Assembly: GCA_012295275.1 (NCBI GenBank)
Contig: CM022679.1
Coordinates: 31,000,001-31,064,000 of the forward strand
Length of the DNA: 64,000 nucleotides
Direction: 5' to 3'
From: Chrysomallon squamiferum
Taxonomy: Eukaryota; Animalia; Mollusca
Both the position numbers and the translations under genes were made by a program. This document shows, piece after piece, positions 30,753 through 43,848 of the stretch. Each line of letters begins with the position of its first letter. Positions within the stretch are counted from its first letter, which is position 1. The notes beneath the pieces are model-generated. The model saw only the letters and a list, made by a program, of their open reading frames with translations. It was not told the DNA's origin and made no database searches.

Positions 30753-33700
30753 TTACAGTTCACTCGTCGCTCTGAAGTAAAAAAATATATATATATATAT
30801 ATATATATATATATATATATATATATATATATATATATATATATATATATATATATATATATGACTGTCGCTCTGAAGTAAAATATATATATATATATAT
30901 ATATATATATATATATATATATATATATATATATATATATATATATATATATATATATATATATATATATAATGTAAATAAGCAAATAAATAAATAAATA
31001 ATAACGAGTTGCCTATAACTGAACTGTTTCGAAATTTTGATCATTATACAGTCATTCTTGTGCAGATCTAGCTTTCTCCATGTCTCAGATATATATTTAT
31101 CTTTGTTTTCTGATGTTAATGTGGACTTAAAACATATTTGACTTACTTGCGAGGATCCCTAATAGCTCGTCCTGTATCAAGAAGAAAAACAGGTGAATAA
31201 TTGAGAAAGAGAGAGAGAGAGAGAGAGAGAGAGAGAGAGAGAGAGAGAGAGAGAGAGAGAGAGAGAGAGAGAGAGAGAGAGAGAGAGAGAGAGAGAGAGA
31301 GAGAGAGAGAGAGAGTGTAATTCTTCTACATTTTACCTCAGTCAGACATTGTCTGTAATATATGTAGGATAAATTAATGTTAACTTAATAGACGGATTCT
31401 ATATGTTTATTATTATATCCTGAAGACAACAAGGATATAATAAATGATTGTGTTATTATAAACAATAATACAATTTAATTTCACTCCCTTTATGGATTTT
31501 ATTATTACTGTTATTGCTATTGTTGTTATTATTACTCTTATTATAATAATCCTTATTCTTATTCTAATTATTATTATTTATTTATTTATTTATTTACTTA
31601 TTTATTTATTTTAGATAATATAATTTTCCTGTTGCCATATTTGATGAACTGAAATTTACACCATTATTGTTCAAATGGTATTTAATCTAATATTCATCAA
31701 GATTCAGTTAAGAAAGAAAGTACTCACACACATATACAAATATACACAAAAACAATATATATATGAAGATTTTCCTATAACTAAAATGTTTTGAAATTTT
31801 AATCATGGATTATTGTTTATCATTACAGTCATTCTTCTGCATACCCAGGTCTCTGCCTGTGTCAAATATATTTATCATAGATTCTTCCTATTAATGTGGA
31901 CTTAAAATACACTTGACTTACGTGCGAGTTCGAGTGGATCGCCCAAACCGGCTGAAAATAAAAAATAAAAATATTACTTCGAAGACAAACATTAACCAGG
32001 AACAATTTACACTTTACCTCCGTTTGACAATTTCTGCAATATACACACATTGTGTCCAGACGAACACTGTGGGACGTTTAATATATATGATTATCACTCG
32101 AATACTGACACTGTCCGTAAGTTTATGTTCAGTTGCATCCATCTTCTCTAGGATAAATTAATGTTATCTTACTGGACATATTCCAATTTTATTACACCGT
32201 GAAAAAATAGAGAGATTATAAATTATTCTCGCATTATAAACAATAATACACTTTAATTTAACAGCTATTTGTGGATATTATTGTTGTTATTGTTATTGTT
32301 GTTTTTAATTACTGTTATTATCATGATCGCCGTTATCATTATTATTATTATTAATTAATTAATTCATTATTTTATTTTAAATAGTGTAACATTTGATGTT
32401 ACCATATTTGATGAACTGTAATCTACATTAGTATTGTTGAAATGGTATTTAGTCTATTATTTATCAAAGCTGTGTTAAGAAAGAAAACAGACACACATAT
32501 ACACACACAAACACAGAGATGAACAACAGAAGCGTGACATTAAGAAGCAGAAAAAATAACACATTAAAAAATAAAAAGTTATTATTGATATATGCACTTT
32601 GCAGTTCGTAATAGGTGTTTCAAAAAAAAGACAAAAGCTGATCTAATAGTGCTGACTTATTGGTGACGTCATTTATGTTAGGGATTGAAAGACTGATACT
32701 CACAGATATCCGTATTGGCTGTACAAAGAAGATAAACACTCAGGTGAATAATTCCAAAAATATATGTGTTTCTATGAGTATGTGTATTTGTGAGTGTGTG
32801 TGTGTCCACATGGGAAAAAAACCGTATATATTTGTGAGGAGAGAAGTGTTGGTTATTTCTGGATTGTATGTAAAGGGCATAAAAAGCTATAGATACAGAG
32901 AGTCATACACACAGAGAAGGAGAAGCAGAGAGAGAGAGAGAGAGAGAGAGAGAGAGAGAGAGAGAGAGAGAGAGAGAGAGAGAGAGAGAGAGAGAGAGAG
33001 AGAGAGAGAGAGAGAGAGAGTAATTCTTATTGATATGCGTATTAAAAGAAAGACAAAAGGTACAAACGTTAGTAAAATTAGTAACTTTTCTTATTTTATA
33101 TGATGTTATACTGTCTAAATGACAACTTAGAGTGAAACTATCTTTCTTTGTTTTTTAATACCGAATGTATGCAAAACAAAATGTGAAATATATTGCATTA
33201 CTAACTCAATTATTGTTCATTCTAACGCGAAACTTTCCGTTTATTATTAACATAAATTCTTAGTATTTTTAATGATTCCAGTACTCGATTATCGATAATG
33301 TTGTATAGTATTATGTATAAACTTAATGGACATATTCCAGTTTTATAACAAAGTGAAGAAAACAGAGAGATTATAAATTATTATCGTATTACAAATAATA
33401 ATAGACTTTAATTTAAAAGTTATTTGTGGATATTATTGATGTTATTGCTATTGTTGTTTTTAATTACTATTATTATGATGATCGCCATTATCGTTATCGT
33501 TATTATTTATTAATTTACTTATTTATTTATTTTAAATACTATAACATTTGCTGTTACCATATCTGATGAACTGTAATCTACATTACTATTGTTAAAATGG
33601 TATTTCGTCTATTATTTATCAAAGCTCTGTTAAGAAAGAAAACAGACACACATATACAAACACAAACATAGAGATCAACAACAGAAGCGTGATATTAACA

Positions 33701-42700: not shown

Positions 42701-43848
42701 AGAGAGAGAGAGAGAGAGAGAGAGAGAGAGAGAGAGAGAGAGAGAGAGTTAGTAATTCTTATTGATATGCGTATTAAAAGAAAGACAAAAGGTATAAACG
42801 TTAGTAAAAATAGCTTTTTTTATTTTATATGATATTATACCTTCTAAATGACTGACTAGAGAGAAACTATCTGACTTCGTTTTTTAATACCGAATCTTTG
42901 CCAAAACAAAATTTGAAATATATTACATTATTAAACTAATTAATGTTCGTTCTAATGCGAAACCTTCCGTTTATTATTAACATAAATTCTTAATATTTGA
43001 AATGATTCTAATACTCGATTATCGATAATGTTGTATAGTATTATATATATTTTGTTTCTGTAACGTTATCAATCAATTTCTAATGACTAGTTTGGGTCCC
43101 TAAAAGTATGACTATTAATATGAACACAGTGAGGTATATTATCAAAGTGGGTCTCTGAATTTGTATTGCTAAATGATGAACTAACGACAGCTAGAAAATC
43201 ATCAAAAACTTTGTAACTCCGAGTTTAAATAATTCATTTATTAGACTTCAAGTGGCAGAAAACAGTATTCAGTTTTACGATTTATTTTACATAGTTTCAT
43301 TTTACATCTTAATAGTTTTCTTAACATGAATATATTCCTTTAACTAGAATTACATTATATTTGTTTTATTCTTACGAACAATTTTAAGTAAAATATCTCA
43401 TAGTGACGTAGAGTAAGTCAGACGCAAATGAAATAGCAAAAAAATCACTAGTGATACAAAACAATTAATAATAATAATAACAAATAAAGTAGTAGTAGTA
43501 ATAATAGTAACATAAAAAAAAATACCATTAAAATTACATGTATATAATTAAAGCCATATAAGAAGAAACGTTTTACCTGTTTAGATGAAAGGTTTTATTT
43601 CTTATAATTCCATATACGTATTTGTATTGGAATAGATTAAGATTATTACAAATATATTTAATTACACCTACAATCCAGAGCACTAAAGAAAGTATTTTAT
43701 TTTGCACTCATTCACCCGTCTCACATTCAACTGCACTGAACAGGAAAAGGGAAAACGAAACTTACTGGTATTCGTAAGATGTTAATTCGACATGCACTGA
43801 TCCCAAAATAATGAAGAGCAGGATAATTTGCAGTTTCAACGCAAACAT
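30753..43848 (-). CDS. Micro-exon gene copy C: predicted multi-peptide amidated precursor of about 155 aa (signal exon, 17 micro-exons, terminal exon)
   Basis: Signal exon 43766-43848. Micro-exons 42423-42437, 41639-41668, 41326-41340, 40822-40851, 40351-40365, 39179-39193, 38397-38426, 38084-38098, 37581-37610, 37051-37065, 35903-35917, 35112-35141, 34790-34813, 34285-34314, 33860-33874, 32704-32718, 31922-31951. It ends in 31147-31171 (TSY*) or 30753-30771 (ATSEL*, then AATAAA). Stop-free product: [151 protein letters not shown](ATSEL*). Confidence 0.75.
31760..43040. repeat. Tandem array of about 3.2-3.3 kb units (about 3.5 copies), each carrying five micro-exons
   Basis: The homologous 30-nt exon recurs at 31922, 35112, 38397 and 41639 (periods 3190, 3285, 3242). 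Near-identical short ORFs repeat in the ORF track. Confidence 0.88.

What the first reader, a model, noticed from the sequence alone, without database searches (positions are those of the whole stretch)
31922..43848. Peptides are split across exon junctions: head exons (15/24 nt) plus tail exons (30 nt) could form a combinatorial peptide library
Seen: each 30-nt exon supplies the last two residues plus the processing signal and spacer (xx-G-R-S: RF, RW, PF, GW, RP). The 15/24-nt exons supply the N-terminal part (GPYY, SRQI, APYY, VPLN, APCY, EHGY, LPCY, QYGY, SRQSDEI). RxxR sites (R-T-S-R, R-K-S-R) are themselves assembled across junctions, directly before Q. Established: Gly followed by a basic residue marks PAM amidation after convertase cleavage, and N-terminal Gln can cyclise to pyroGlu. 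Inference: because every exon is symmetric phase 2, skipping would join any head to any downstream tail in frame and create new mature peptides from one gene.
Basis: partly seen in the sequence, partly recalled or inferred. Interest (0 to 1): 0.85.

Follow-up and report, generated by a model that had tools for sequence, protein, structure and literature searches.

The report
Snail micro-exon peptide precursor family
A likely vent-snail gene family spells its predicted secreted, hormone-like peptides in 15-30-base exons that change about five to seven times faster than the neighbouring intron DNA; new head-tail pairings are made by DNA duplication and copying, and mixing by splicing is possible but untested.

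Summary
The micro-exons are real in the DNA. A signal-peptide exon (43766-43848, minus strand) is followed by 14 exons of 15, 24 or 30 nt with CAG/GT ends, all phase 2. Tails carry invariant G-R-S; R-x-x-R sites are built across junctions before Gln.

Two corrections. Three further 30-nt tails have a GAG acceptor, and 2 of their 3 copies in the neighbouring paralog are broken, so they are probably skipped. That makes pQIGRFa and pQSDEIGRFa doubtful and gives 15-19-residue amidated peptides, three starting with Gln. GW and RP tails lie in that paralog, outside the stated range.

The window holds six related signal exons; a neighbouring receptor gene points to a neomphaline-like gastropod. Head exons change 5-7 times faster than flanking intron. 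The gene is a tandem array of a 3.2-3.3 kb unit, and one tail was copied between paralogs behind a different head. Diversity is therefore demonstrably made in DNA, and shared phase is the precondition for that, not proof of skipping.

No transcript could be examined. No homologue or description was found. It is built like schistosome micro-exon genes but encodes a prohormone-type precursor.

The parts
43766..43848 (-). Gene A exon 1 coding part: 20-residue predicted signal peptide plus start of the first peptide; 83 nt, ends in phase 2
42423..42437 (-). 15-nt head exon (GPYY), CAG/GT
41639..41668 (-). 30-nt tail exon (PF-G-R-S), CAG/GT
41326..41340 (-). 15-nt head exon (SRQI) completing R-T-S-R before Gln
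40822..40851 (-). 30-nt tail-like element with GAG acceptor (RF-G-R-S); probably skipped or weakly included
40351..40365 (-). 15-nt head exon (APYY)
39179..39193 (-). 15-nt head exon (VPLN)
38397..38426 (-). 30-nt tail exon (RW-G-R-S), CAG/GT; closest match to the patch copied into gene B
38084..38098 (-). 15-nt head exon (SRQI) completing R-K-S-R before Gln
37581..37610 (-). 30-nt tail-like element with GAG acceptor
37051..37065 (-). 15-nt head exon (APCY)
35903..35917 (-). 15-nt head exon (EHGY)
35112..35141 (-). 30-nt tail exon (RF-G-R-S), CAG/GT
34790..34813 (-). 24-nt head exon (SRQSDEI)
34285..34314 (-). 30-nt tail-like element with GAG acceptor
33860..33874 (-). 15-nt head exon (LPCY)
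32704..32718 (-). 15-nt head exon (QYGY)
31922..31951 (-). 30-nt tail exon (RF-G-R-S), CAG/GT
31147..31171 (-). 25-nt exon with head-type acceptor and tail-type donor; gives an in-frame stop if included
30700..30771 (-). Predicted last exon: stop after five residues, AATAAA about 50 nt in; lower end approximate; homologous last exons in paralogs C and D
49472..57594 (+). Paralog B, head-to-head with A: 77-nt signal exon, heads AAFL, SRHIDEY, LPYF, SRHIDED, FPYY, SRHIDEY, tails GW, RW, RP; GAG-class tails at 53071-53099 (29 nt, broken), 55250-55279 (acceptor lost, stop) and 57565-57594; cut by the N gap at 57871
12860..16498 (-). Paralog D: intact short gene, signal exon, two 24-nt heads, two 30-nt CAG tails with dibasic RR, last exon with AATAAA; lower end approximate
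20331..24860 (+). Paralog C, partly decayed: two signal exons (20331-20419, 20661-20743), one intact tail (22426-22455), several broken exons, last exon from 24796; upper end approximate
61750..64000 (+). Paralog E, a 94% copy of the start of B: signal exon 61750-61826 and head 63320-63334; runs off the window

Best explanation
This is one member of a young, multi-copy gene family, likely of a vent-type (neomphaline) snail, whose micro-exons are predicted to encode a secreted precursor that would be cut and amidated into four hormone-like peptides; exon and module duplication and copying between paralogs made the peptide variety in the DNA, and exon skipping would only add to it. Steps. (1, shown) A signal exon, 14 CAG/GT micro-exons in one phase and a short last exon give one open frame. 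(2, inferred) The three GAG-acceptor tails are mostly skipped, so head-B, one or two head-A exons and a CAG tail make one peptide. (3, established chemistry, untested here) A furin-type convertase cuts after R-x-x-R, a convertase and carboxypeptidase trim at G-R, PAM amidates, and N-terminal Gln cyclises; products are 15, 16, 16 and 19 residues ending in PF, RW, RF and RF amide. (4, shown) A 3.2-3.3 kb unit was tandemly repeated, heads were duplicated inside it, tails were lost, and patches were copied between genes A and B. (5, shown pattern, inferred cause) Peptide-coding exons change 5-7 times faster than introns while signal and G-R-S stay fixed, likely through diversifying selection. (6, inferred) Such peptides most likely leave the body from a gland and act on G-protein-coupled receptors of another animal: a mate (about 0.4) or a crustacean enemy (about 0.3), rather than microbes (0.15) or the snail's own neurons (0.15).
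For: Exon anatomy and open frame. Exon 1 is 77, 83 or 89 nt in six copies and heads are 15 or 24 nt, so all these length changes keep the frame (about 0.012 for four such events). Ten 15-nt heads differ at 315 of 675 pairwise sites (47%) against 994 of 13360 (7%) in 150-nt flanks; the tree-free minimum is 24 changes against 5.2 expected, P 2e-9, ratio 6.9 (5.1 with 250-nt flanks). In seven CAG tails 11 of 17 changes fall in the first 7 nt and none in the G-R-S codons. The 60 signal-coding bases show only 6 changes in six copies. GAG class: one clade, support 1.0, with GAG in all 5 copies that keep the acceptor region while related intact tails have CAG. In gene B one copy is 29 nt and has lost the Gly, another has lost its acceptor and has a stop, and B's frame is open only without them. 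In DNA run X1 the element carries listed indels of -1, -8 and +4 and an Arg-to-Pro change, with no change listed at the GAG. Repeat period 3190-3300 nt. The 600 nt around B's RW tail differ by 0-2.7% from A's 38397 module but by up to 16% from B's own modules, behind a different head. Nearest named relative of the neighbouring receptor is from Gigantopelta aegis, 66% identity.
Against: No transcript or peptide was seen, so every splice and processing step is predicted. Over all ten heads synonymous change is as high as non-synonymous (pS 0.44, pN 0.46), so a local rise in mutation or micro-conversion could explain part of the speed-up; only subsets show a clean excess (12 N, 0 S in four A heads). 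The excess is not significant for 24-nt heads (P 0.06-0.08), and for whole tails it is P 0.01 with 150-nt flanks but 0.18 with 250-nt flanks. Four GAG elements are identical, 30 nt and in frame (0 changes, 1.2-3.9 expected, P 0.29-0.02), and Q-I-G-R-F-amide looks like a normal RFamide. The X1 indels lack a CAG-tail control, and other tail classes were partly laid in that call. The function rests on analogy only.
Confidence: 0.6

Rival explanations
1. One reading: the gene works as a splicing-driven combinatorial library, as schistosome micro-exon genes do. Frequent skipping joins heads to later tails, and the weak GAG tail acts as a toggle between one long peptide and a short RFamide plus a second peptide.
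For: All 153 forward junctions are stop-free; on a simple cleavage rule the 14 CAG exons allow up to 1493 distinct amidated products, 13 of them from single skips. Exons of 15 nt between 0.3-1.3 kb introns are prone to skipping (own knowledge). Schistosome MEG-1 to -3 show skipped variants (PMC4015677 passages). Four GAG elements are intact.
Against: Shared phase is inherited from the duplicated module. The CAG exons have 12-13 of 15 pyrimidines and GTRAGT donors. No convincing long-range pairing was found (best E 0.035, AT-rich). Reshuffling is already fixed in DNA. For frog caerulein and magainin genes with tandem exons the authors judge that splicing adds little diversity (PMC3731216 passage).
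Confidence: 0.22
2. All 17 elements, GAG tails included, are spliced constitutively, giving pQIGRFa, pQSDEIGRFa and longer peptides that start with the SISSVK spacer.
For: The frame is open with all 17; the three copies in A are identical with an intact G-R and a GTAAGT donor; ancestrally a 24-nt head was paired directly with a tail (paralog D).
Against: GAG is the rarest acceptor type (own knowledge). The donor is equally intact in the two broken copies. Two of three copies in B are broken, and B needs them skipped. The class shows none of the fast change seen in the first two codons of CAG tails. The four identical copies are recent copies of each other. The spacer offers only a lone Lys for the next cut.
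Confidence: 0.11
3. The cluster is silent or decaying, or its product is an unprocessed secreted protein and the G-R and R-x-x-R motifs are incidental.
For: Paralog C and parts of B are decayed. No homologue of exon 1 was found.
Against: Frame-preserving length changes, fixed splice sites, fixed G-R-S, a fixed signal peptide and a conserved last exon with AATAAA in three paralogs are not expected of dead DNA. Paralog D independently has G-R-R and R-R at the same place.
Confidence: 0.07

Closest known systems
Schistosome micro-exon genes (MEGs)
   Same: Signal exon followed by a run of very small symmetric exons that make up about three quarters of the coding sequence (here 73%, or 78% with the GAG elements); multi-copy, fast-evolving, predicted secreted (PMC4015677, PMC4350168 passages).
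   Different: MEGs are described as apparently restricted to flatworms; the word 'amidat' has 0 hits in the main text of the 2023 MEG review. Here the host is a gastropod and the product has prohormone cleavage and amidation signals. Skipping is shown for MEGs, untested here. No sequence relationship was found.
Pipid frog skin peptide gene cluster (caerulein, xenopsin, magainin, PGLa; PMC3731216)
   Same: Cluster of paralogs in both orientations, pseudogenes, shared signal region, R-x-x-R sites, amidation and pyroglutamate, peptides divided over two exons, tandem exon duplication, hormone look-alikes.
   Different: Those genes have three to five exons or near-identical repeats and descend from cholecystokinin. 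Here one peptide is spread over three or four exons of 15-30 nt, the repeats are highly divergent, and the ancestor is unknown.
Molluscan RFamide and APGWamide precursors (FMRFamide, LFRFamide, luqin, NPF, CCK/SK, APGWamide)
   Same: Signal peptide, repeated peptides, Gly-basic amidation signal; C-termini YLRFa, GRFa and PGWa resemble them. The Lymnaea and Haliotis FMRFamide genes and the Aplysia luqin gene are alternatively spliced (PMC4208409 passages).
   Different: Those genes are reported under purifying selection (PMC5996578). The molluscan CCK/SK spacing DYxxGxxRF is not met. Here there are many paralogs with hypervariable peptides and mixed C-termini in one precursor.
Crustacean sulfakinin II and RPCH (motif likeness only)
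   Same: The last nine residues of gene A's fourth peptide match 7 of 9 of prawn sulfakinin II, with the arthropod Y-G-x-x-R-F spacing; gene B's first peptide ends F-x-P-G-W-amide like RPCH (table in PMC4449106).
   Different: No homology is implied. A rough chance estimate for the sulfakinin match after multiple testing is 0.01-0.4, so it is a lead only.
Conotoxin and conorfamide precursors
   Same: Conserved signal with hypervariable mature region in a gastropod multigene family (pattern recalled); RFamide-like venom peptides exist in Conus.
   Different: One toxin per precursor and no micro-exon run (recalled); no venom apparatus is known to me in neomphaline snails.

Membership tests
Micro-exon genes (MEG type) | Micro-exons make up to about 75% of the coding sequence | tested here: met
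   279 of 382 nt (73%) without and 369 of 472 nt (78%) with the GAG elements; definition from PMC4015677
Micro-exon genes (MEG type) | Micro-exons are symmetric | tested here: met
   17 of 17 elements between exon 1 and 31922 are multiples of 3 in phase 2; the 25-nt exon at 31147 is not
Micro-exon genes (MEG type) | N-terminal signal peptide | tested here: met
   Met, Lys, hydrophobic core and polar end in six copies, by inspection and hydrophobicity filter only; no signal predictor was run
Micro-exon genes (MEG type) | Isoforms made by exon skipping | tested here: inconclusive
   No RNA holder listed and no spliced contig to examine
Micro-exon genes (MEG type) | Flatworm gene belonging to one of the schistosome MEG sequence families | tested here: not met
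   Neighbouring receptor points to a gastropod; exon-1 searches found no relative. It is built like a MEG but is not filed as one.
Amidated peptide prohormones | Basic cleavage sites flanking peptides and Gly before a basic residue | tested here: met
   G-R in 7 of 7 CAG tails of A and B; R-x-x-R before each later peptide; G-R-R and R-R in D
Amidated peptide prohormones | Mature amidated peptides detected; expression in secretory cells | not testable with these tools
   Needs peptidomics and in situ data
Classical molluscan neuropeptide genes | Peptide sequence under purifying selection | tested here: not met
   Heads change 5-7 times faster than introns among paralogous copies; purifying selection reported between species for scallop neuropeptides
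Molluscan CCK/sulfakinin | C-terminal motif DYxxGxxRF-amide | tested here: not met
   One peptide has the arthropod-type Y-G-x-x-R-F spacing, the others neither

The most novel reading that the evidence does not exclude
A micro-exon gene system outside flatworms in which splicing assembles prohormone peptides piece by piece. Skipping of 15-30-nt exons, with the weak GAG tail as an on/off cutter, lets each of many paralogs release a mixture of amidated neurohormone mimics (sulfakinin-, RPCH/APGW- and RFamide-like ends) aimed at the receptors of mates or crustacean enemies.
Probability: 0.22. Interest if true: 0.87.

Novelty: new variant of a known kind. Interest (0 to 1): 0.62.

Why it matters
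Micro-exon genes of this build have been described as apparently confined to flatworms. Here the same build appears in a gastropod and encodes a prohormone-type precursor in which one 16-19-residue peptide is written in three or four exons and its cleavage site in two. Whether or not skipping is frequent, the locus shows peptides being rebuilt by gain, loss and copying of 4-9-codon modules, including an ancient tail that lost its acceptor and so would fuse two peptides into one. Such genes are likely missed by standard annotation, so more may be hidden in invertebrate genomes. The locus makes one question directly testable with a single amplicon experiment: is variety in a micro-exon gene made by splicing or by DNA? 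The very fast change also points to an unknown chemical interaction of these snails with mates, enemies or microbes.

Tried and rejected
No whole genome is held for the window, so copy number and synteny could not be read. RNA: no RNA holder listed for exon 1 (10 sampled words). Three RNA runs added by study (X2-X4) gave no contig on exon 1 or on the GAG element; X2 gave one 36-nt piece and X4 one piece of about 285 nt in intron 1. This is no evidence on expression. X1 covers introns evenly and is read as DNA; its summed depth suggests many copies but is not a copy number. Homologue searches with exon 1 only: 0 of 12 candidates among longer proteins, 0 hits at E up to 0.001 in 1.84 billion representatives, 0 of 596 pattern matches confirmed in metagenome contigs, 0 matches for a 22-nt tail stretch, no Pfam family. 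A 27-40-residue, mostly signal-peptide query is weak, so absence of relatives is not established; the full spliced product was not searched. Literature: searches returned 0 papers; searches listed nothing on this gene by title or abstract start; one search was swamped by a personal name and is uninformative. The two original MEG papers were not held. The scaly-foot snail papers (passages) did not mention such a gene; in the supplements of PMC11871041 three sequence motifs had 0 hits, but one file was an unreadable scan and one was cut. A first guess of a decapod crustacean, from the simple repeats, was dropped. Mutually exclusive splicing by docking-site pairing: not supported. An upstream CAG 28 nt before the GAG would give a 58-nt, frame-breaking exon (read) and was rejected. 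In one search my cleavage rule wrongly cut the G-R inside I-G-R-F when GAG elements were included, so only the counts without them are used. Earlier scan notes: nothing relevant.
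Full report
What is in the sequence. The window is AT-rich animal DNA with many simple repeats. On the minus strand an 83-nt exon at 43766-43848 encodes a 20-residue predicted signal peptide plus seven residues and ends in phase 2. Below it lie 14 exons with CAG acceptors, 12-13 pyrimidines in 15 nt and GTRAGT donors: nine of 15 nt, one of 24 nt and four of 30 nt, 40-67% GC against 30% for the region. 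A strict splice-site pattern finds 15 sites on this strand, none on the other, and 0.27 on average in 200 resamples; the copies are duplicates, so the figure is not an independent test. A 25-nt exon (31147-31171) would add a stop. A last exon from 30771 has a stop after five residues and AATAAA about 50 nt in, as do its homologues in two paralogs. GW and RP tails belong to the paralog at 49472-57594.

The GAG tails. Three more 30-nt elements (40822, 37581, 34285) follow GAG rather than YAG. They form one clade with three copies in paralog B (support 1.0); all five that keep the acceptor region have GAG, whereas the related intact tails have CAG. In B one copy is 29 nt and has lost the Gly codon, another has lost its acceptor and has a stop, and B reads through only if they are skipped. 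In run X1, which covers introns evenly and is read as DNA of this or a close species, 69 contigs were laid on one element. Listed changes inside its 30 nt include -1 (depth 292), -8 (42), +4 (52), a probable net +3 (60) and Arg to Pro (69); none is listed at the GAG; the 171 flanking bases have five indels. There is no CAG-tail control, and other tail classes were partly laid. Against decay: four copies are identical and in frame (0 changes, 1.2-3.9 expected), although the one in B is a recent copy from A. I infer that the class is mostly skipped. Then each later peptide of gene A starts with Gln straight after R-x-x-R and ends at G-R; the four products are 15, 16, 16 and 19 residues.

A family, and how it changes. 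Six related signal exons lie in the window on both strands, with lengths of 77, 83 and 89 nt, all phase 2. The first 60 bases show 6 changes; the rest is hypervariable. Gene A is a tandem array with a period of 3190-3300 nt. Ten 15-nt heads differ at 47% of pairwise sites against 7% in flanks; the tree-free minimum is 24 changes against 5.2 expected (P 2e-9), ratio 5.1-6.9. In seven CAG tails 11 of 17 changes sit in the first 7 nt and none in G-R-S. Results that weaken a pure selection reading: pS equals pN over all heads (0.44 and 0.46), and the excess is not significant for 24-nt heads or, with wider flanks, for whole tails. About 600 nt around B's RW tail are 0-2.7% from A's 38397 module but up to 16% from B's own modules, while the head in front is different: a new head-tail pair made by copying of DNA. 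In X1, 201 contigs lie on the exon 1 region, 31 at 99% or more and 170 below, which fits a larger family.

Organism. The intronless rhodopsin-type receptor at 8511-9515 has its three best named relatives in Gigantopelta aegis, 59-66% identical, against 32-39% for the remaining hits. That species is a peltospirid neomphaline gastropod. The window likely comes from that group; the species was not established.

Is it a splicing library? All 153 forward junctions are free of stops, and a simple rule gives up to 1493 amidated products from the 14 CAG exons, 13 of them from single skips. So the capacity is real. But an exon can only be duplicated or lost harmlessly if it is symmetric, and all these exons descend from one head and one tail, so shared phase is expected without skipping (inference). 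The CAG exons have uniformly good sites, and no docking-type pairing was found. Schistosome micro-exon genes do skip exons (PMC4015677, passages), which keeps the idea alive. For frog genes with tandem peptide exons the authors conclude that splicing adds little (PMC3731216, passages). No transcript could be examined here. I put some skipping at about even odds and a functional large library at about 0.2.

Likely function. Conserved signal, fixed processing sites, hypervariable peptides, birth and death of copies: this is the pattern of secreted peptide arsenals, not of classical molluscan neuropeptides, which are reported under purifying selection (PMC5996578, passages). The ends resemble known ligands: 7 of the last 9 residues of one peptide match prawn sulfakinin II with the arthropod spacing, and B's first peptide ends like RPCH and APGWamide (PMC4449106, table passage). 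A rough chance figure for the first match is 0.01-0.4, so it is only a lead. APGWamide is tied to male reproduction and seminal fluid in molluscs. I therefore favour a gland product acting on receptors of a mate or a crustacean enemy; this step is inference.

Comparison and novelty. The gene meets the structural marks of micro-exon genes (73-78% of the coding sequence in symmetric micro-exons, signal peptide) but is not a flatworm gene and has no detected sequence link, so it is not filed as a MEG; MEGs are called apparently restricted to flatworms (PMC4350168, two passages; PMC10526429, passages). It works like a prohormone precursor, and its cluster resembles the pipid skin-peptide cluster. 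Exon-1 searches found no relative but were weak. Paper searches found no description. PMC7142155 and PMC11871041 were seen as passages, the supplements of the latter by motif search with one file unreadable and one cut; PMC4208409 as passages. The two original MEG papers were not available. Interest 0.62.

Noticed in passing
window 8511-9515 (+): Intronless 334-residue rhodopsin-type receptor, 3.4 kb from the end of paralog D; member of a group expanded in Gigantopelta. No evidence links it to the peptides.
   Followed up: partly
window 31147-31171 (-): 25-nt exon that joins a head-type acceptor to a tail-type donor, probably a deletion product; it would end the protein with or without the last exon's coding part.
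   Followed up: partly
window 57871-58070 and 45719-51671 against 58077-64000: A 200-N gap cuts paralog B; beyond it a 94% copy of the 6 kb holding B's start follows. Could be a real duplicate or an uncollapsed haplotype.
   Followed up: no
window 27054-27083 (-) and 25700-28030: An orphan but intact 30-nt CAG tail (T-G-R-S) below gene A's last exon, among fragments of other copies; its head exon is missing.
   Followed up: partly
window 53528-53542 (+), 50781-50795 (+), 63111-63125 (+): A head exon with the weaker donor GTCAGT, and a duplicated head whose donor is broken (GTGTGT) next to a live copy: further candidates for skipping or decay.
   Followed up: partly
window 716-1385: Array of a 23-nt unit (12.5 copies at 717-1008, looser copies beyond), unrelated to the finding.
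   Followed up: no
window 45125-45155 (+), 48190-48220 (-), 60472-60502 (-): A 31-nt exon-like element ending in ATG with a GTAAG donor lies about 1.3 kb upstream of three signal exons, on the opposite strand to each.
   Followed up: no
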